DNA of 64,000 bases, from the sequence record NC_100327.1. One strand, 5' to 3'. The translations under genes were made by a program, and so were the position numbers. The notes under the pieces are model-generated. The model made no database searches and was not told the origin of the DNA. It was given only the letters and a program-made list of their open reading frames with translations. This stretch comes from a phage. Positions 19,617 through 26,493 of this stretch are shown piece by piece (positions within the stretch are counted from its first letter, which is position 1; each line of letters starts with the position of its first letter).

Positions 19617-19693
19617 TGGTCTCCACGGAGTGATTCGAACACTCGACCTCCTGATCCCAAATCAGGCGCTCTACCAAGCTGAGCTACGCGGAG
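19617..19693 (-). tRNA. tRNA-Pro (anticodon TGG)
   Basis: Hand-folded cloverleaf: 7-bp acceptor with C1-G72, D-arm, anticodon loop TTTGGGA, T-loop TTCGAAT, encoded CCA. Confidence 0.75.
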
Positions 19694-19703
19694 TATTTAT
19701 TAT

Positions 19704-19779
19704 TTGGTGGCCCTGGGTGGAATTGAACCACCGTCTGGCGATTATGAGTCGCTTGCTTGAACCTTCCAGCTACAGGGCC
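19704..19779 (-). tRNA. tRNA with CAT anticodon (Met, or Ile if lysidine-modified)
   Basis: Acceptor GGCCCTG/CAGGGCC, anticodon loop CTCATAA, T-arm GGTGG-TTCAATT-CCACC, CCA encoded. Confidence 0.75.
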
Positions 19780-19780
19780 A

Positions 19781-19856
19781 TGGTGCTGATGGCAGGACTT
19801 GAACCCGCAACCTATTGATTACAAATCAATTGCACTACCGATTGTGCTACATCAGC
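19781..19856 (-). tRNA. tRNA-Thr (anticodon TGT)
   Basis: Perfect acceptor GCTGATG/CATCAGC, anticodon loop TTTGTAA, T-loop TTCAAGT, CCA encoded. Confidence 0.8.
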
Positions 19857-19860
19857 AAAA

Positions 19861-19959
19861 AGGTGCTAGGTGATGGAATCGAACCACCTATGTATTCAAC
19901 GACTACCTCGTCTATTTTCAGGATTAAAAATCCTCGCCCTTGCCAAAGGGCTTACCTAG
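19861..19959 (-). tRNA. aberrant tRNA-like element with Lys (TTT) anticodon loop and ~25-nt insertion
   Basis: About 99 nt: perfect acceptor GCTAGGT/ACCTAGC, D-arm GCCC-TTTGGCAA-GGGC, anticodon loop TTTTTAA, T-arm GGTGG-TTCGATT-CCATC; extra hairpin GACGA-ggtag-TCGTT between anticodon and T arms; 3' end ACC not CCA. Confidence 0.4.
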
Positions 19960-20057
19960 CTCAGTATGTTGACCATGTTGCTAGTCGGCGATGACGACTG
20001 TAACATTTGATAATCCGGTTCTGCTTCCGACTTTCGCTTAATTACAAGGTCAACAAT

Positions 20058-20148
20058 GTGGCGGAGAGTAATGGAATCGAACCATCATCGAGTCATCCTC
20101 AACGGGACGGTTTTCAAGACCGCTTGAGCACCATTGCTCCCTACCCTC
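20058..20148 (-). tRNA. tRNA-Ser (anticodon TGA), type II
   Basis: Acceptor GGAGGGT/ACTCTCC with one G-U, anticodon loop CTTGAAA, long variable arm, T-loop TTCGATT, CCA encoded. Confidence 0.65.
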
Positions 20149-20263
20149 CTTTATAAATTATACTGATAATGACACTGATTTTCGAGCAGTTAGTGACTAG
20201 TATAAACGACGATAAATATCAATGCCATTATCTGTATTATTTATGCATCTAAAAATATAAATT

Positions 20264-20350
20264 TGGTGGGGAGTGGTGGAGTCGAACCACCCGAGTCGCA
20301 ATGACAATAGATTTACAGTCTACACCGCTACCTCTACGGGATAACTCCCC
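20264..20350 (-). tRNA. tRNA-Tyr (anticodon GTA), type II
   Basis: Acceptor GGGGAGT/ACTCCCC, anticodon loop CTGTAAA, long variable arm, T-arm GGTGG-TTCGACT-CCACC, CCA encoded. Confidence 0.75.
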
Positions 20351-20354
20351 AATT

Positions 20355-20429
20355 TGGCACCCCGTACTGGACTCGAACCAGTGTCAACGGCTTAGAAGGC
20401 CGCTGCTTTATCCACTAAGCTAACAGGGC
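20355..20429 (-). tRNA. tRNA-Arg (anticodon TCT)
   Basis: Acceptor with two G-U pairs, D-loop AGTGGATA, anticodon loop CTTCTAA, T-arm ACTGG-TTCGAGT-CCAGT, CCA encoded. Confidence 0.75.
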
Positions 20430-21531: not shown

Positions 21532-21741
21532 TCAACAGATTCCGGCCTTATCCTTCCTGTCTGCGTATTCTTTAATCGCAACCTCATCTGCATTAGTGAC
21601 CAGGTCTTCAAAGTAACTCTCAAGCTCCTCGTCAATGTCAGGAGACCAGCTCTTTTTCCTGTCAGTGTGAATTGCAGACTTGTTGAACTTATTACAGTTC
21701 TTTGCTACCGGGTTGTTCATTAAGCGCTCCTCAGCGTTCAT
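21532..21741 (-). CDS. hypothetical protein
   Basis: 69 aa ORF, ATG overlapping upstream gene end. Confidence 0.4.
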   Translation of the reverse strand: MNAEERLMNNPVAKNCNKFNKSAIHTDRKKSWSPDIDEELESYFEDLVTNADEVAIKEYADRKDKAGIC

Positions 21742-22309
21742 AGTAAATTTTATTTAACATTACCTCATCTTTTGCAGAAAGAATACCGAGATATGCATCA
21801 CCGAATCTACCTGCAACAACCTCTGCATGATACATCACTTCGTTAATATCGTCAAGAGTGATAACTGGATGACCGTATCTCTCTGAGTATTGTCTCAGAG
21901 TGCGATGTAGAGAGTCATCATCATAGGCAGACTTTTTAATATCACAAACACGACGAATAGCCTTGATGTCGAAAAAACCTGTGCGATACCACCCAAGAAA
22001 AAGGTTTCGTGCAGTGTCAACATCTACATTGATACCATCAAGAACCTTATCTACAAGATAGCTGTCATCCTTTGGACCAGCGTCCTTAGTGCGAATGTAG
22101 TTGCCATCTTTTCCAGGCGACATCTCCTTCTCATCCCCAACCTGCATGCCATCATTTGGCGGTGTTAGCCACTTATCCGGATGCTTACGATCACGAGCGT
22201 TAGAATGATTACGCTGGAAACCGGGCTTCCACTTGAAAGTTTTCTCCATCTGTTCTTCATTCTGATAACGTTTTGCAATCTTTTCACGGTCATCTTTGCG
22301 TGAACCCAT
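21731..22309 (-). CDS. hypothetical protein
   Basis: 192 aa, ATG with GAGGAGG RBS. Confidence 0.55.
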   Translation of the reverse strand: MGSRKDDREKIAKRYQNEEQMEKTFKWKPGFQRNHSNARDRKHPDKWLTPPNDGMQVGDEKEMSPGKDGNYIRTKDAGPKDDSYLVDKVLDGINVDVDTARNLFLGWYRTGFFDIKAIRRVCDIKKSAYDDDSLHRTLRQYSERYGHPVITLDDINEVMYHAEVVAGRFGDAYLGILSAKDEVMLNKIYYER

Positions 22310-22689
22310 AGCTGCCTCCTCTTCAAGTTATAGAAAAACTCACTGTATCGCTTTGTAACGAGCTTTTCTATCAAACTGGTGCGATTGCATTACCTGGTAT
22401 AGTTTATATAGCTGTGGAGCGATTTAGGGGCCTTCTTGTCAGTTTCCACACATAAACTTCATCCAAGCTCGCGCGGGAGACTCTCAACCGACTCCTTACG
22501 GCGCTGGCAAGCTTTCGTCGGTGGTCCACATCAGTGCTCGGCCTTTGGCCTGCGCTATCGCTTCGCTCCCACACATGTTAACAGACCTGCATGTATGAAC
22601 TTCTGTTATTGTGTGCACCAAGGAGGCCCGGCATCTCGCCCCTCGTAGGCGAGTGCCAATGAAGGGCCGACACTGCCCATAGTAAGTAA

Positions 22690-22810
22690 TAAATTTAAAA
22701 CATGGTACTTAGGATCTAGTATATTCTACATAAGTTAAGTATATGTACTTAGTACCATAAGTACTAGATCTTTTATTTTTTATTATTTAGTTATTTTAGT
22801 TATATTCTTT
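22690..22810. promoter_or_regulatory. AT-rich palindrome-bearing region (candidate origin/regulatory DNA)
   Basis: Over 75% A+T with GTACTTAG/CTAAGTAC-type inverted repeats and T-runs, adjacent to iteron array. Confidence 0.4.
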
Positions 22811-22812
22811 AT

Positions 22813-22900
22813 GTGTCCGTATCACGGACAGTTAGTGTCCGTATTACGGGCAGATGTGTCCGCGTGACGGACAGTAGTGTCCGTATCACGGACAGTTAAT
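22813..22900. repeat. array of 4-5 palindromic operator/iteron-like sites at ~22-bp spacing
   Basis: TGTCCGT-atc-ACGGACA twice exactly, plus variants TGTCCGT-att-ACGGGCA and TGTCCG-cgtga-CGGACA and a degenerate fifth copy. Confidence 0.7.
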
Positions 22901-22969
22901 AGTATCCGTTCCATGACGAACATAAAACATACGAATCCTTATAGTACAGATATTTAAGTTTTTACTGGT

Positions 22970-23320
22970 CTAACCAGTTGTTGACATCCGAATAACTTCT
23001 TCTGGTGGCAAAACTTTGGAAAATGTGCATCTTTTACCTCTCCCTTGTGTGGATGTTTCAACCACTCCTGCACATTCTAAAGTTTTAACGCACGCTGCTG
23101 CTTTTGTTTTCTTTATCCCAACATCTGCTGCAATTTTCCTTGTGCTTGGTGTGAAGCGTGAATTTCCTCCAAGCTTATACCAGTTGTGCAGGTAGCAGTA
23201 TACGATCTTGTCATACAAGTCAAGAACAACAACCTCCCCAGTTGTGTCATTCAAAACTTTTGACATAGATAGTATTTCAAGGGGGACTTTAAGATATAGC
23301 AGCTTATCCCCATCTTTCAT
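22970..23320 (-). CDS. winged-helix/HTH DNA-binding protein (candidate binder of adjacent iterons)
   Basis: 116 aa, ATG with AGGAG RBS; helix-turn-helix-like segment STRKIAADVGIKKTKAAACVKTLECAGVV. Confidence 0.45.
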   Translation of the reverse strand: MKDGDKLLYLKVPLEILSMSKVLNDTTGEVVVLDLYDKIVYCYLHNWYKLGGNSRFTPSTRKIAADVGIKKTKAAACVKTLECAGVVETSTQGRGKRCTFSKVLPPEEVIRMSTTG

Positions 23321-23367
23321 ATCTCCTGATTCTCCTTGTGTGGCAATTTTCTTTAAAATAGCAGGGA

Positions 23368-23922
23368 TTACTCCCTGCTGTCAATATCAAAACTCATTGC
23401 AATACGGTATGCCTCTTCTAATGGTAAGAGTCTCCCCCACACATCCCAACCGACATCAAGCTGCCTGCCAAACAACTGTTGTGTGGTTCCGTGAGCATGA
23501 CCGAACAGTTGGACTGATCCGTGAGGCTTTCTGTTCCACTTTGCAAACTGGTAATGGCTCATACAGATCAAATTCTTGTTGTGGCGAAGCTCGTAATAAT
23601 CTACAACCTCATGACCGAACTCTTTCATAATTCTGACAGTCGTCCTTGTGTCATGGTTGCCACGAACAAGAATAATATGTCCGTTCAACATATTTAGAAT
23701 ATCTGGAAGTAAGTTGTTGATATTCTTATCATTAGTGCACGCAATATCTCCCAAGTGGAACACAGTGTCTGCAGGTGACACAACAGAGTTCCACTCGGCG
23801 ATGATTCCCGCATTCATACTGTCAAGATTGTGATCATACTGAGATCTGTGTTTTTGACATGAATCAAACTCCATGACCCGCTGGTGGAGAAAGTGTGTGT
23901 CGCTTGTTACAAAGTATTTCAT
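23368..23922 (-). CDS. calcineurin-like metallophosphoesterase
   Basis: ORF track 23368..24027; start moved to ATG (MKYFVTSDTHF) with GAGGAA RBS; motifs SDTH, HLGDI, GNHD. Confidence 0.7.
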   Translation of the reverse strand: MKYFVTSDTHFLHQRVMEFDSCQKHRSQYDHNLDSMNAGIIAEWNSVVSPADTVFHLGDIACTNDKNINNLLPDILNMLNGHIILVRGNHDTRTTVRIMKEFGHEVVDYYELRHNKNLICMSHYQFAKWNRKPHGSVQLFGHAHGTTQQLFGRQLDVGWDVWGRLLPLEEAYRIAMSFDIDSRE

Positions 23923-23929
23923 ACATTCC

Positions 23930-24340
23930 TCATTTAAGTTTAATGCAGTTTTTAAGCTGGCGTTCCATACGATCCACAACCTTGTCTGGAACATCATGAA
24001 TGCTTTTATTACCGTGGCGGTTTTCAACCACGATCACGGTATAACTATACCCATGACTGATTGCCATGTCAACATATTCCTGCACATGTTTTTCTTTTGT
24101 AAACGTATTACTTACCACGATACGGTCGTATCCCATACGCATCATATCTTCTACGTTATCTTTGCACCATTTTGCTGCGAGTGTTACTTTACTTGCATCC
24201 CAGTTGTAATTGCCGTCATCGTCATACCAGAACATGTCGTTCTCAAAATGTGGATACAGACCCTCTAAAGATAGCGCATTTGCCAGTGTTGATTTGCCAG
24301 ACCCTGGTAGACCACGCACGATATATAGCATTTTAGACAT
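23930..24340 (-). CDS. P-loop kinase (polynucleotide-kinase-like)
   Basis: ORF track 23930..24397; start at ATG (MSKMLYIVRG) with GGAGGG RBS; Walker A GLPGSGKST. Confidence 0.6.
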   Translation of the reverse strand: MSKMLYIVRGLPGSGKSTLANALSLEGLYPHFENDMFWYDDDGNYNWDASKVTLAAKWCKDNVEDMMRMGYDRIVVSNTFTKEKHVQEYVDMAISHGYSYTVIVVENRHGNKSIHDVPDKVVDRMERQLKNCIKLK

Positions 24341-24461
24341 AGTGACCCTCCGTTTTAATTTCAACGGTAGTATACCTAACTGTTTTGTTAATTTCAAGTG
24401 TTGACACTAGGTTATTTGTGTGGCAGGATAGACTGACAAAATGACAAATGAGGAACATATA

Positions 24462-25376
24462 ATGAAGTATTTTAATGCAGACGACCTAGTTGACAAAGGT
24501 CTTGTAACCAGTAGGTATTACCCAGATCTCGGGTTAAAGATCTATAAATATGCTAGAAAAGTATTTTACAACAATTTATGGCATTTGTCCCCTCGTTTAC
24601 TGGAGTGCCGAGGCATTGTTGTAGGTAATGAAGGAAATGTTGTGGCATGGCCCTTCACAAAAGTGTTTAACTTGGGAGAAAACTCCACCAACCTGCCTGA
24701 CAATAAGCTTGTGACTGCGGTAGAGAAAAAGAACGGATTCCTTGGTGTGGTATCATCTCATAAAGGTGACCTATTGTTCTCAACAACCGGGTCTCTTGAT
24801 TCTCCATATTGTAACCTTGCAAAGGAAACCATCCAAGAGCAATGTGGTAATTTAGATCTTATCAAGAAGGTTATGGGCAATGAAAACATGACATTCATGT
24901 TTGAAATTTGTCACCCTTCAGATCCGCATATTGTTCAAGAAGACCATGGCGCATATTTGATAGGTTGCAGATATAATGATTCTGGAATAATGCTACCAGA
25001 AGCCGCTTTAGATGGGATTGCCAAATACCTTGGTGCAAAACGTCCTCACACTGTGCGTGAAATTCCGTTCAGCTATGCAAAAGAGTTAGCTGCAGAAACA
25101 AGAGGTGAAGGATATATGATTCGTAAGCCTTACTACCCTTATGATCTGCAGTTGAAGATCAAGTCTCCATACTATCTGGCACGAAAGGCCGTAATGAGGG
25201 GTAAAGCTTGGAAGATTTGGGATGATGATATCTTTAAACGTGTTGACGAAGAGTTTTACGGCATGGTAAACTTCATTCGTAACAACTACACAGAGGATGT
25301 ATGGAACTGCCTCCTGGAGCAGGAACGCCGTGAGATACTTGACTGCTATTTCCACAACGAGGACTATATGCAATGA
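24462..25376 (+). CDS. RNA ligase-like nucleotidyltransferase
   Basis: ORF track 24441..25376; start at second ATG with GAGGAA RBS; ligase motifs EKKNGFLG (KxNG), EGYMIR, KIKSP. Confidence 0.6.
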   Translation: MKYFNADDLVDKGLVTSRYYPDLGLKIYKYARKVFYNNLWHLSPRLLECRGIVVGNEGNVVAWPFTKVFNLGENSTNLPDNKLVTAVEKKNGFLGVVSSHKGDLLFSTTGSLDSPYCNLAKETIQEQCGNLDLIKKVMGNENMTFMFEICHPSDPHIVQEDHGAYLIGCRYNDSGIMLPEAALDGIAKYLGAKRPHTVREIPFSYAKELAAETRGEGYMIRKPYYPYDLQLKIKSPYYLARKAVMRGKAWKIWDDDIFKRVDEEFYGMVNFIRNNYTEDVWNCLLEQERREILDCYFHNEDYMQ

Positions 25377-25731: not shown

Positions 25732-26493
25732 ATGCGACGACTGATTATTATCTCCGGTGCTGGTTTGAGCGCTGAATCTGGTATTCCCACTTTCCGATCT
25801 GGTAGCACTGCAATGTGGGAGAATTTCAGCATCGATGAGGTGTGCAACATCCACACCTTTGCCAAGAACTACTACAAGGTGCATGACTTTTACAATGCAC
25901 GTCGTGTAGCTCTAGGCGGTGTTGAGCCTAACCTTGCACATCTTCGGATCGCTGAGTGGTATTCCCGCTGGTCTGGTCGTGTGATCAACCTTACCACCAA
26001 TGTAGATGATTTGCTGGAGCGTGCGGGTGTAAAACATGAAGATATTTTACATGTTCACGGGTATTTGCCAGAAATAGTCTATGAGGACGACGAAGGAAGT
26101 AACGTCATTAAGGACATTGGATACTCTGAGGTAGATGCAGGAAAGTATACCTGGGTTAAGCCTAATGTGGTGTTCTTCGGAGAAGTAGCTCCGAAGTATA
26201 CAGACATGTATGACCTGTTGACTTCTCTTACGAGTAATGATATGGTTATCCTTGTAGGGTGTTCCAACACAGTTATCAATTTTAACTGGGAGCTATTCCC
26301 TGCCTGCAATAAGGGAACCAAACTGCTGATCGTTAACAAATACGACTCACAGCAGCTAGGGGAGAATGGTATTTCACGTAGTGATATTTACCAATATGAG
26401 GATCGCGGCATCCCAGTTTGGTTTAACGGGGCGGTTGATGCTTTCTCTGATAAAACATTCATTGAGACCGTAGAAAACTTTATGGAACTTTAA
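25732..26493 (+). CDS. Sir2-family NAD-dependent protein (deacylase/ADP-ribosyltransferase-like)
   Basis: 253 aa, ATG with GAGGA RBS; GAGLSAESGIPTFR, TTNVDDLLERAG, HVHG, NVVFFGE motifs. Confidence 0.8.
   Translation: MRRLIIISGAGLSAESGIPTFRSGSTAMWENFSIDEVCNIHTFAKNYYKVHDFYNARRVALGGVEPNLAHLRIAEWYSRWSGRVINLTTNVDDLLERAGVKHEDILHVHGYLPEIVYEDDEGSNVIKDIGYSEVDAGKYTWVKPNVVFFGEVAPKYTDMYDLLTSLTSNDMVILVGCSNTVINFNWELFPACNKGTKLLIVNKYDSQQLGENGISRSDIYQYEDRGIPVWFNGAVDAFSDKTFIETVENFMEL

What the first reader, a model, noticed from the sequence alone, without database searches (positions are those of the whole stretch)
22690..22900. Iteron-like array of palindromic sites next to an AT-rich palindromic region: candidate replication origin or operator
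Four to five copies of a 17-19-bp inverted repeat (TGTCCGT-atc-ACGGACA, two exact and three variant) are spaced at ~22 bp, about two helical turns. They follow a >75% A+T segment containing GTACTTAG/CTAAGTAC palindromes. The array lies immediately upstream of a small winged-helix-like protein gene (22970..23320, minus strand) and at the boundary where transcription direction switches.
Basis: seen in the sequence. Interest (0 to 1): 0.6.

Follow-up and report, generated by a model that had tools for sequence, protein, structure and literature searches.

The report
Candidate replication origin of rV5-like phage
Four evenly spaced palindromic DNA sites next to the most A+T-rich stretch of this rV5-like coliphage genome are most likely the docking sites of the small DNA-binding protein encoded beside them, and together they look like the phage's still-unmapped origin of DNA replication.

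Summary
The array is real. Four 17-bp palindromes (TGTCCG-N5-CGGACA) start at 22814, 22836, 22857 and 22878, with a decayed fifth copy. They are unique in the ~139-kb genome and abut its most A+T-rich block (22680-22812, 80.5% A+T). The window is a Vequintavirus (rV5-like). Three details in the finding are wrong. The array lies downstream of the minus-strand gene 22970..23320, not upstream. The transcription switch is ~1.45 kb away. CTAAGTAC does not occur.

The 116-aa gene product is a winged-helix protein. Its only significant match among solved structures is the iteron-binding N-terminal domain of the PLE satellite initiator RepA (4RO3). Plasmid RepA_N initiator domains are among the top fold hits.

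Sister genera carry homologous small proteins, each beside its own one to three palindromic repeats and an A+T-rich region. Between two ~80%-identical phages the protein gene and its repeats are swapped as one unit.

Best reading (0.55): an iteron-type origin served by an initiator reduced to its DNA-binding domain. Main rival (0.25): a lambda-style operator. No binding, replication or transcription data exist.

The parts
22680..22812 (.). A+T-rich block (80.5% A+T), the candidate DNA-unwinding element. It contains two direct GTACTTAG repeats, the inverted repeat ATGGTACTTAG/CTTAGTACCAT, two GATC sites (22713, 22767) and T-tracts next to the array.
   Evidence: It is the most A+T-rich 60/100/130-bp block of the window and richer than any 100-bp block in the rest of the inoa genome. 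Its variable-site density among 10 Vequintavirus genomes is 0.083, against 0.13-0.18 in the flanking non-coding DNA. The segment 22766-22812 is 78% identical over 50 nt to the equivalent stretch beside the repeats of Erwinia phage pEp_SNUABM_01.
22814..22830 (.). Palindromic unit 1, TGTCCGTATCACGGACA
22836..22852 (.). Palindromic unit 2, TGTCCGTATTACGGGCA (one half-site mismatch, present in every sampled genome that carries this unit)
22857..22873 (.). Palindromic unit 3, TGTCCGCGTGACGGACA
22878..22894 (.). Palindromic unit 4, TGTCCGTATCACGGACA (identical to unit 1)
22903..22922 (.). Decayed fifth unit (TATCCG-N8-CGAACA), lying in the hypervariable stretch 22899-22922. Its right end, (C/T)G(A/G)ACA, is conserved and could act as a -35 hexamer for a rightward TATAGT -10 at 22940-22945.
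   Evidence: 15 of the 24 positions 22899-22922 vary among 10 genomes. Alignments. Promoter-like match.
22970..23320 (-). Gene for the 116-aa winged-helix protein, the presumed binder of the array. It corresponds to only the DNA-binding N-terminal domain of RepA_N/PLE-RepA-type initiators.
23355..23384 (-). Predicted sigma-70 promoter of the winged-helix gene (TTGACA-18-TATTTT with TG). Its spacer holds the palindrome GCAGGGA-TTAC-TCCCTGC.
   Evidence: Annotated as a promoter in rV5 and as a terminator in phage Murica.
22405..22679 (.). Conserved G+C-rich (55.6%) non-coding element between the A+T-rich block and the next gene (21731..22309). Its role is unknown and it may not belong to the module.
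   Evidence: The ORFs are not conserved and substitutions show no codon-phase bias. No Rfam match. Folding z-scores are -1.5 and -1.4.

Best explanation
The array, the adjacent A+T-rich block and the neighbouring gene form an iteron-type replication origin module.

Proposed mechanism:
1. The 116-aa winged-helix protein is made from its own sigma-70-type promoter.
2. It binds as dimers to the four 17-bp palindromes (half-sites TGTCCG / CGGACA).
3. The sites are 21-22 bp apart, so all dimers sit on one face of the helix and can assemble cooperatively.
4. This nucleoprotein complex bends or stresses the DNA so that the adjacent 133-bp, 80% A+T block opens.
5. The phage's own replisome enters there. 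The rV5 paper describes a T7-gp4-like primase-helicase and a PIF1/RecD-type helicase; the inoa record annotates a DNA polymerase, a primase/helicase and a further helicase.

Shown here: the sequence architecture, its uniqueness, its conservation, the homology of the protein to an iteron-binding initiator domain, and the co-inheritance of protein and repeats.

Inferred: binding, cooperativity, melting and initiation.
For: 1. Anatomy. Four phased palindromes sit next to the genome's most A+T-rich block. The site is unique in about 139 kb.
2. Protein.
   - The profile of the window-type protein has one significant match among all PDB sequences: 4ro3, E 2.5e-6.
   - The sister 4MG-type profile finds the same chain independently, E 3.5e-5.
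   - 4RO3 is the N-terminal domain of PLE RepA. That protein binds the iteron (repeat 3) of the PLE origin in EMSA, and the paper describes typical RepA_N iterons as semi-palindromic direct repeats. [quoted passage not shown]
   - Foldseek ranks 5kbj, 4pql and 4pt7 first.
   - The distant HMMER relatives that could be classified fall in HTH_36/DUF6945/DnaD_N families, named replication initiation, O-like or DnaD-like by PHROGs.
3. Comparative evidence.
   - Homologous small proteins exist in other Vequintavirinae genera and related phages. hhalign gives 96% probability for window type vs 4MG type and 95% for 4MG type vs K54 type.
   - In most sampled loci the gene has its own palindromic repeats beside it, with an A+T-rich region carrying AGATC motifs on the far side. 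Five loci have two or three tandem copies at a 23-26 bp period; four show only a single imperfect palindrome seen by eye.
   - Several of these repeats converge on a central A/T tract, as RepA_N iterons do.
4. Cassette swap. Phages 4MG and K54_rec4 are 70-85% identical (about 80% beside the module) on both sides. The winged-helix gene plus its repeats share no DNA similarity, and homology resumes at the first base after the repeats.
5. Inversion. In this genus the gene is inverted relative to the array, yet the array stays joined to the A+T-rich block. The array therefore does not depend on lying in that gene's promoter.
6. Selection. The array and the A+T-rich block have about half the variable-site density of the neighbouring non-coding DNA. 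Substitutions inside units fall mainly in the 5-bp centre (5 of the 6 variant positions against the window). Unit number varies from 2 to 4 in exact unit steps.
7. The origin of rV5 is undefined in the literature.
Against: - The protein is only a DNA-binding domain. It lacks the C-terminal domain that RepA_N, lambda O or RepE-type initiators have beyond their DNA-binding domain.
- Its Pfam scores are just under the curated cut-offs (27.4 vs 28; 24.5 vs 25).
- DUF6945 also occurs fused to a GIY-YIG nuclease, so the domain is a general DNA binder.
- In sister genera the repeats lie 8-11 bp upstream of the -35 of the gene's own promoter, or abut its ribosome-binding site. That position also fits transcriptional control.
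- DnaA boxes and GATC sites are not enriched here.
- GC skew turns 1.45 kb away, at the transcription switch, and is explained by transcription direction.
- No binding, replication or transcript data exist.
Confidence: 0.55

Rival explanations
1. Transcriptional operator. The winged-helix dimers bind the tandem palindromes to repress or activate promoters that flank the array, as lambda CI/Cro do at OR. This would control leftward transcription into the non-coding region and the genes beyond it, and possibly a rightward antisense transcript across the winged-helix gene. It would not be an origin.
For: - The geometry equals lambda-type operators: 17-bp palindromes in tandem.
- GenBank records call the protein 'putative transcriptional regulator'.
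- In sister genera the repeats sit just upstream of the TTGACA -35 of the winged-helix gene, or abut its ribosome-binding site.
- Outward-facing promoter-like matches use the terminal half-sites as -35 elements. Leftward: CGGACA-15-TAAAAT. Rightward: (C/T)G(A/G)ACA-17-TATAGT. The rightward match reaches 10-11 of 12 in FV3, SYGMH1 and Aya.
- Generic winged-helix repressors are close fold matches.
Against: - Only one locus in the genome carries the site, so the protein is not a global regulator.
- In this genus the array lies 3' of the gene.
- The window's promoter matches are weak (8 of 12) and were not picked up by the stricter scan or by the rV5 authors.
- In Av-05 and FBKp34 the sites centre near -54 and -80 and do not overlap the core promoter.
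- The specific sequence affinity is to initiator DNA-binding domains.
- This rival is not exclusive: initiators commonly autoregulate through their iterons.
Confidence: 0.25
2. A DNA-organising site with another role. Either it is a centromere-like partition site bound by a TubR/ParR-like adaptor, or it is a packaging (pac) recognition site bound by a small terminase-like protein.
For: - Phased arrays of palindromes bound by winged-helix or RHH dimers are typical of plasmid centromeres.
- TubR appears among the Foldseek hits (E about 1e-2).
- One Vequintavirus genome is deposited as a circular 137.6-kb E. coli 'plasmid'.
- One assembly (A141) is opened right at the array.
Against: - No ParA/ParM/TubZ-type partner gene is adjacent. 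The neighbouring P-loop protein is an AAA_33 kinase type.
- The phage is lytic.
- The nearest annotated terminase CDS lies about 3.5 kb away, beyond the lysis and tRNA genes.
- The protein shows no terminase similarity.
- An assembly break at a tandem repeat is an expected artefact.
Confidence: 0.07
3. RNA-level element. The array is transcribed and its four hairpins act as an RNA, for example as a protein-binding or processing array.
For: - The array lies inside a block of minus-strand genes.
- Each unit can form a hairpin with a 6-bp stem.
Against: - No U-tract follows any hairpin, and no terminator-like site was found.
- There is no Rfam match above chance.
- The two half-site variants (unit 2, and FV3 unit 3) would each be a wobble pair only on opposite strands, so no single strand keeps all the stems.
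- The co-swap with a DNA-binding protein points to a DNA-level role.
Confidence: 0.03

Closest known systems
PLE RepA and the PLE origin iterons (Vibrio cholerae phage satellite; Barth et al., NAR 2020, PMC7145576; PDB 4RO3)
   Same: - Tandem (semi-)palindromic repeats in a non-coding region serve as the binding sites.
- The element works together with a lytic phage's replisome.
- The rV5 paper reports a PIF1/RecD-type helicase. I take this, from my own knowledge, to be the SF1B class that PLE replication needs.
   Different: - The phage protein is the N-terminal domain alone (116 aa) and has no C-terminal domain.
- Here the element belongs to the phage itself, not to a satellite.
- The central spacer of the sites here is TATCA/TATTA/CGTGA rather than a poly-A tract.
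- Binding and origin function are untested here.
RepA_N plasmid initiators of Gram-positive bacteria (PDB 5KBJ, 4PQL, 4PT7, 4PTA; named in PMC7145576 as staphylococcal plasmid RepA proteins, e.g. pSK41 and pTZ2162)
   Same: - Dimers bind iterons that contain inverted sub-repeats.
   Different: - No detectable sequence similarity to Pfam RepA_N.
- No C-terminal domain.
- From my own knowledge, the origin of those plasmids lies inside the rep gene. Here it lies outside the gene.
ori-lambda with O protein (recalled from established knowledge, not tested here beyond Pfam)
   Same: - Four palindromic iterons of about 18-19 bp in tandem.
- An adjacent A+T-rich region and a further inverted repeat.
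- The N-terminal winged-helix of O binds as dimers and forms an 'O-some' that stresses the A+T-rich DNA.
- Specificity cassettes of protein plus iterons are exchanged among related phages.
   Different: - ori-lambda lies inside the O gene.
- O has a C-terminal domain that recruits P-DnaB.
- The window protein gives no Phage_rep_O match. Only the 4MG type does, weakly (E 0.042).
Lambda OR/OL operators with CI/Cro (recalled)
   Same: Tandem 17-bp palindromes with short spacers between divergent promoter-like elements, bound by dimers.
   Different: - No strong promoters overlap the sites here.
- The protein family is initiator-like, not CI/Cro-like.
- The phage is lytic and has a single site cluster.
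Basic replicons of iteron plasmids such as P1 oriR, F ori2 and pSC101 (recalled)
   Same: In sister genera the order is A+T-rich region (with GATC-containing short repeats), then iterons, then promoter, then rep gene. This is the canonical layout of these replicons.
   Different: - Those iterons are asymmetric direct repeats bound by monomers of two-domain Rep proteins, and DnaA boxes are present.
- Here the sites are palindromes, the protein has one domain, and DnaA boxes are not enriched.

Membership tests
RepA_N-like initiators / PLE RepA (DUF6945 N-terminal domain) | N-terminal winged-helix domain homologous to the iteron-binding domain | tested here: met
   [not shown]
RepA_N-like initiators / PLE RepA (DUF6945 N-terminal domain) | Passes the curated Pfam thresholds (DUF6945, HTH_36 or RepA_N) | tested here: not met
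   DUF6945 27.4 bits vs cut-off 28. HTH_36 24.5 vs 25. No RepA_N (PF06970) hit.
RepA_N-like initiators / PLE RepA (DUF6945 N-terminal domain) | C-terminal domain beyond the DNA-binding domain (described as genus-specific and possibly host-specific in function, PMC7145576) | tested here: not met
   The protein is 116 aa. The model ends after the wing and one short helix. All family members found are 105-158 aa.
RepA_N-like initiators / PLE RepA (DUF6945 N-terminal domain) | Tandem semi-palindromic iterons close to the gene | tested here: met
   Four 17-bp palindromes lie 76-156 bp from the stop codon. One to three palindromic units lie beside the gene in the nine sampled sister loci, tandem (two or three copies) in five of them.
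RepA_N-like initiators / PLE RepA (DUF6945 N-terminal domain) | Inverted sub-repeats converge on a poly-A tract | tested here: not met
   The centres in the window are TATCA, TATTA and CGTGA. The feature is present in sister phages Av-05 (CAAAAC), FBKp34 (TTTTT) and ChuuTotoro (TTTTT).
RepA_N-like initiators / PLE RepA (DUF6945 N-terminal domain) | Protein binds the iterons, and both are required for replication | not testable with these tools
   Needs EMSA or footprinting and replication assays.
ori-lambda type origin | Four tandem palindromic iterons plus an adjacent A+T-rich region | tested here: met
ori-lambda type origin | Origin inside the initiator gene; initiator of the Phage_rep_O family with a helicase-loader-binding C-terminus | tested here: not met
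   The array is intergenic. The window protein gives no Phage_rep_O hit. The protein has one domain.
Iteron plasmid replicon (Rep_3 / RepE / P1 RepA type) | Asymmetric direct iterons, DnaA boxes, and a two-winged-helix Rep protein | tested here: not met
   The sites are palindromes. One DnaA-like box with 1 mismatch is found, against 2.3 expected by chance. The protein has a single winged helix.
Lambda-type operator | Palindromic sites overlap the core elements of the regulated promoters | tested here: inconclusive
   Only 8-of-12 promoter-like matches use the terminal half-sites as -35 in the window. These rise to 10-11 of 12 for the rightward match in FV3, SYGMH1 and Aya. The stricter scan found none.
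Plasmid partition centromere | Adjacent partner NTPase (ParA/ParM/TubZ) | tested here: not met
   The neighbouring genes encode a metallophosphatase and an AAA_33 kinase-type P-loop protein.

The most novel reading that the evidence does not exclude
Vequintavirinae and some related large myoviruses would use a minimal initiator that is nothing but the RepA_N-like DNA-binding domain. Phased dimers on two to four palindromic iterons would open the adjacent A+T-rich DNA without any protein domain for recruiting a replisome. Entry would be left to the phage's gp4-like primase-helicase or its PIF1/RecD-type helicase, as has been speculated for PLE RepA. The protein-plus-iteron cassettes, of which at least three types are swapped as a unit between otherwise similar phages, would then define replicon specificity groups among co-infecting phages.
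Probability: 0.3. Interest if true: 0.65.

Novelty: new variant of a known kind. Interest (0 to 1): 0.5.

Why it matters
- rV5-like phages are among the most frequently isolated coliphages and are widely considered for biocontrol and therapy. Their replication origin is nevertheless undefined: the rV5 genome paper tried skew analysis and found only transcription-linked changes.
- This module gives a precise, testable candidate: about 250 bp of DNA plus one 116-aa protein.
- It links a large lytic myovirus to the RepA_N/PLE-RepA initiator lineage, which is described as rare in Gram-negative bacteria.
- It offers a natural experiment on how such initiators work, because the protein is the N-terminal domain alone and the cassettes are swappable.
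- If the module proves to be an operator instead, it would be one of the first identified regulatory switches of this phage group.

Tried and rejected
- Rfam, at gathering and E-value thresholds, found only tRNAs and chance-level hits. No RNA family matches the array or the G+C-rich element.
- RNA folding of the G+C-rich element on both strands gives z-scores of -1.5 and -1.4, not distinctive.
- Coding potential of the G+C-rich element: the plus-strand ORF has stop codons in most relatives, and neither ORF shows codon-phase bias, so it is non-coding.
- DnaA boxes are not enriched, and GATC is not significantly enriched in the A+T-rich block (2 sites).
- GC skew turns at the strand switch about 1.45 kb away and cannot separate replication from transcription effects (same conclusion in PMC3606486).
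- The word-based protein search found only Vequintavirus copies. The exhaustive HMMER search found 15 proteins.
- Contigs of two distant relatives were under 2 kb and uninformative.
- The IMG/VR scan found no relatives.
- The first AF2 model, from 5 near-identical sequences, was too poor to use (pLDDT 45).
- The combined family profile A4, dominated by the K54 type, does not reach 4ro3. The link rests on the window-type and 4MG-type profiles.
- Direct profile comparison of window type with K54 type is weak. Homology is transitive through the 4MG type.
- RefSeq complete E. coli genomes hold no copy.
- Literature searches found nothing on an origin or on this protein in Vequintavirinae.
- No consistent hairpin explains the hypervariable tail 22899-22922 (inspection).

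Full report
IDENTITY OF THE WINDOW. The 3-kb stretch around the finding is 99-100% identical to Escherichia phages inoa, PMBT16, nom and about 115 other records of the genus Vequintavirus (rV5-like myoviruses, ~136-140 kb). In GenBank the array is at most labelled 'repeat_region'. The neighbouring gene is labelled 'putative transcriptional regulator', 'DNA-binding protein' or 'replication initiation protein'.

THE OBSERVATION.
- Four copies of a 17-bp palindrome (TGTCCG-N5-CGGACA) start at 22814, 22836, 22857 and 22878. The spacing is 22/21/21 bp, which is two helical turns. Units 1 and 4 are identical.
- A decayed fifth copy lies at about 22903-22922.
- Allowing 2 mismatches, the pattern gives 6 hits in the window, against 1.14 expected; 0 of 100 shuffles reach 6.
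- All hits with 0 or 1 mismatch belong to the array. None occurs elsewhere when the window is joined to the rest of the inoa genome.
- To the left, 22680-22812 is 80.5% A+T. This is the most A+T-rich 60-, 100- and 130-bp block of the window, and richer than any 100-bp block in the rest of inoa.

Three descriptive points of the finding are wrong:
1. The gene 22970..23320 is on the minus strand, so the array lies beyond its stop codon, not upstream.
2. Transcription switches direction at about 24341-24461, roughly 1.45 kb to the right. The cumulative GC-skew minimum is also there.
3. GTACTTAG is a direct repeat (22705, 22745) and CTAAGTAC does not occur. The true inverted repeat is ATGGTACTTAG / CTTAGTACCAT.

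VARIATION WITHIN THE GENUS. I aligned 10 genomes and read the array in 12 sequences: the window and 11 related genomes.
- Nine have four units, one has three and two have two. The differences are always exact unit steps.
- Against the window, 5 of the 6 variant positions inside units lie in the central 5 bp; one lies in a half-site (FV3 unit 3).
- Variable-site density is 0.081 in the array and 0.083 in the A+T-rich block. It is 0.13-0.18 in the other non-coding parts and 0.625 in the 24-bp tail that holds the decayed fifth unit.
- So the array and the A+T-rich block are the constrained parts of a 660-bp intergenic region.

THE PROTEIN.
- The 116-aa product scores just under the Pfam cut-offs for DUF6945 (27.4 vs 28 bits) and HTH_36 (24.5 vs 25).
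- It belongs to phrog_12838, 'replication initiation protein'. It has weak matches to the N-termini of longer initiators.
- A profile of the protein has a single significant hit among all PDB sequences: 4ro3, E 2.5e-6.
- The profile of a sister type of the protein (phage 4MG type) finds the same chain independently, E 3.5e-5.
- 4RO3 is the N-terminal domain of RepA of the Vibrio cholerae phage satellite PLE. Barth et al. showed that RepA is a RepA_N-type initiator and that it binds the iteron (repeat 3) of the PLE origin in EMSA. They describe typical RepA_N iterons as semi-palindromic direct repeats. [quoted passage not shown]
- An AlphaFold2 model from a 25-sequence alignment (pLDDT 62, pTM 0.58) has winged-helix topology.
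- Foldseek ranks the RepA_N initiator domains 5kbj, 4pql and 4pt7 first.
- Generic winged-helix regulators score almost as well, so the fold alone does not decide.
- An exhaustive HMMER search found only 15 proteins. The distant ones that could be classified are HTH_36/DUF6945/DnaD_N proteins that PHROGs names replication initiation, O-like or DnaD-like. One is a GIY-YIG nuclease fusion.
- The protein has no second domain.

COMPARISON WITH OTHER GENERA.
- The DNA and the protein of the window type occur only in Vequintavirus.
- Two further types of small winged-helix protein occupy a divergently transcribed intergenic region in all but one of the nine sampled loci, which come from other Vequintavirinae genera and related phages. 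In most of these loci the gene lies just upstream of a ribose-phosphate pyrophosphokinase (PRPP synthetase) gene. These are the 4MG_094 type (38 records) and the K54 gp156 / PVP-SE1 gp99 type (74 records).
- Profile-profile comparison links window type to 4MG type (96% probability, E 2.5e-9) and 4MG type to K54 type (95%, E 7e-8). The direct window-to-K54 comparison is weak.
- In most sampled loci the gene has its own repeats directly beside it:
  - TCAATTTGAG-N-ATAGGCT x2, period 23 (4MG, pEp_SNUABM_01)
  - TATTCC-N6-GGAATA x2-3, period 24 (K54_rec4)
  - TGTCCCC-N5-GGGGACA x2, period 25 (Av-05)
  - TGTCYCT-N4-AGGGACA x2, period 26 (FBKp34)
  - single imperfect palindromes, seen by eye only, in CR3, phiTE, ABPH49 and ChuuTotoro
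- On the far side of the repeats lies an A+T-rich region with AGATC motifs.
- Several of these sites converge on a central A/T tract, the hallmark described for RepA_N iterons.
- The sharpest result is the cassette swap. Phages 4MG and K54_rec4 are 70-85% identical (about 80% beside the module) on both sides of the module. The winged-helix gene together with its repeats shares no DNA similarity, and homology resumes at the first base after the repeats. The A+T-rich region is therefore common, and protein plus repeats are exchanged as one unit.
- This is what a cognate protein-site pair is expected to look like.

WHAT DIFFERS IN THIS GENUS.
- In the sister genera the order is: A+T-rich region, repeats, promoter, gene.
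- In the window the A+T-rich block and the array keep that order, but the gene, together with the phosphoesterase and kinase genes, points the other way. The array therefore faces the gene's 3' end.
- The gene has its own predicted sigma-70 promoter at 23384..23355.
- The array thus stayed attached to the A+T-rich block rather than to the gene's promoter.
- The stretch 22766-22812 is still recognisably similar (78% over 50 nt) to the corresponding stretch of Erwinia phage pEp_SNUABM_01.

INTERPRETATION.
- I rate at about 0.8 the claim that the palindromes are the binding sites of the adjacent protein. It rests on adjacency in all three protein types, the co-swap, the dimer-like palindromes with conserved half-sites, and the uniqueness of the site.
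- What the complex does is less certain.
- The origin reading (0.55) rests on five points:
  1. the specific homology to an iteron-binding initiator domain;
  2. the classic layout of phased iterons next to the most easily melted DNA of the genome;
  3. the single copy per genome;
  4. the persistence of the array-A+T junction despite the inversion of the gene;
  5. the lack of any defined origin in rV5.
- The proposed mechanism is cooperative assembly of dimers on one face of the helix, then opening of the A+T-rich block, then entry of the phage's own replication proteins. The rV5 paper describes a gp4-like primase-helicase and a PIF1/RecD-type helicase; the inoa record annotates a DNA polymerase, a primase/helicase and a further helicase. 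All of these steps are inferred.
- The chief weakness is that the protein is a bare DNA-binding domain.

THE MAIN RIVAL. A lambda-OR-like operator (0.25) is supported by three things:
- the geometry of the sites;
- the position of the repeats just upstream of the -35 in sister genera;
- weak outward promoter-like matches that use the terminal half-sites as -35 elements. The rightward one, (C/T)G(A/G)ACA-17-TATAGT, improves to 10-11 of 12 in FV3, SYGMH1 and Aya. In this genus it would give an antisense transcript of the winged-helix gene.

The two readings are compatible, since initiators often autoregulate through their iterons. Centromere, pac-site and RNA-hairpin readings have little support.

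NOVELTY. The protein name 'replication initiation protein' already circulates through automated annotation, and the repeats are flagged in a few records. In the papers I could search, I found nothing that connects the two, defines an origin for rV5-like phages, or notes the relation to PLE RepA, the domain-only architecture or the cassette exchange. I class the module as a new variant of a known kind, namely an iteron-type origin with a RepA_N-like binder. It is of moderate interest.

Noticed in passing
window 22405-22679: A conserved, G+C-rich (55.6% vs 43% for the window) non-coding element of about 275 bp lies between the A+T-rich block and the next gene. The ORFs annotated here in some records (for example rV5 ORF78) are not conserved: relatives carry stop codons and substitutions show no codon-phase bias. 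A hairpin at 22572-22615 carries an 18-bp deletion in three relatives that keeps the CACACA/TGTGTG stem base. There is no Rfam match, and folding energy is not distinctive. Phage Av-05 also has a G+C-rich non-coding stretch in the equivalent position (L017 473-870), with no sequence similarity to this one.
   Followed up: partly
window 22899-22922: This 24-bp stretch holding the decayed fifth unit is hypervariable: 15 of 24 positions vary among 10 genomes that are otherwise 90-99% identical here. It is flanked by highly conserved sequence on both sides. No consistent hairpin or compensatory pattern was found.
   Followed up: partly
window 22917-22945 (+ strand): A rightward sigma-70-like promoter match, (C/T)G(A/G)ACA-17-TATAGT, scores 8 of 12 in the window and 10-11 of 12 in FV3, SYGMH1 and Aya (Aya has TATAAT). 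It occupies the position where sister genera have the promoter of the winged-helix gene. Here it would make an RNA antisense to that gene.
   Followed up: partly
window 23355-23384: The palindrome GCAGGGA-TTAC-TCCCTGC sits in the spacer of the predicted TTGACA-18-TATTTT promoter of the winged-helix gene. The same sequence is annotated as a promoter in rV5 and as a terminator in phage Murica.
   Followed up: no
L012 2185-2541 vs L013 1534-2541: Between phages 4MG and K54_rec4, which are 70-85% identical (about 80% beside the module) on both sides, the winged-helix gene plus its repeats are replaced by an unrelated-looking cassette. The boundary is sharp and falls exactly at the end of the repeats.
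   Followed up: yes
window 19862-19960: Within the cluster of seven tRNA genes (19617-20429, minus strand), one 99-nt tRNA-like gene is read by ARAGORN with a four-base anticodon (atcc). It scores only 35.5 bits with the Rfam tRNA model and is annotated 'tRNA-OTHER' in inoa.
   Followed up: no
CP057073.1 (L026): A complete Vequintavirus genome (137,565 bp, circular) is deposited as plasmid pRHB39-C03_2 of an E. coli isolate from cattle faeces. No copy occurs in RefSeq complete E. coli genomes. This may reflect a carrier state or a contaminating phage.
   Followed up: partly
phage collection: Eighteen records named 'Campylobacter phage' carry this locus at 91-99% DNA identity over the 660-bp intergenic region (94-100% for the protein) to E. 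coli rV5-like phages. The one whose record header was read (A135) is marked UNVERIFIED, and those listed carry no annotation. The host assignment looks doubtful.
   Followed up: no
window 23368-25376 and 25732-26493: An RNA-repair-like gene set surrounds the strand switch: an AAA_33 kinase-type P-loop protein and a metallophosphatase on the minus strand, and an Rnl1-like RNA ligase followed by Sir2-like genes on the plus strand. In sister genera these genes are all co-oriented, and the winged-helix gene instead heads the PRPP-synthetase/NAMPT-like operon. The 4MG-type protein gives a weak match to Pfam 'wHTH-PRTase associated' (E 2.8e-4, below the cut-off).
   Followed up: partly
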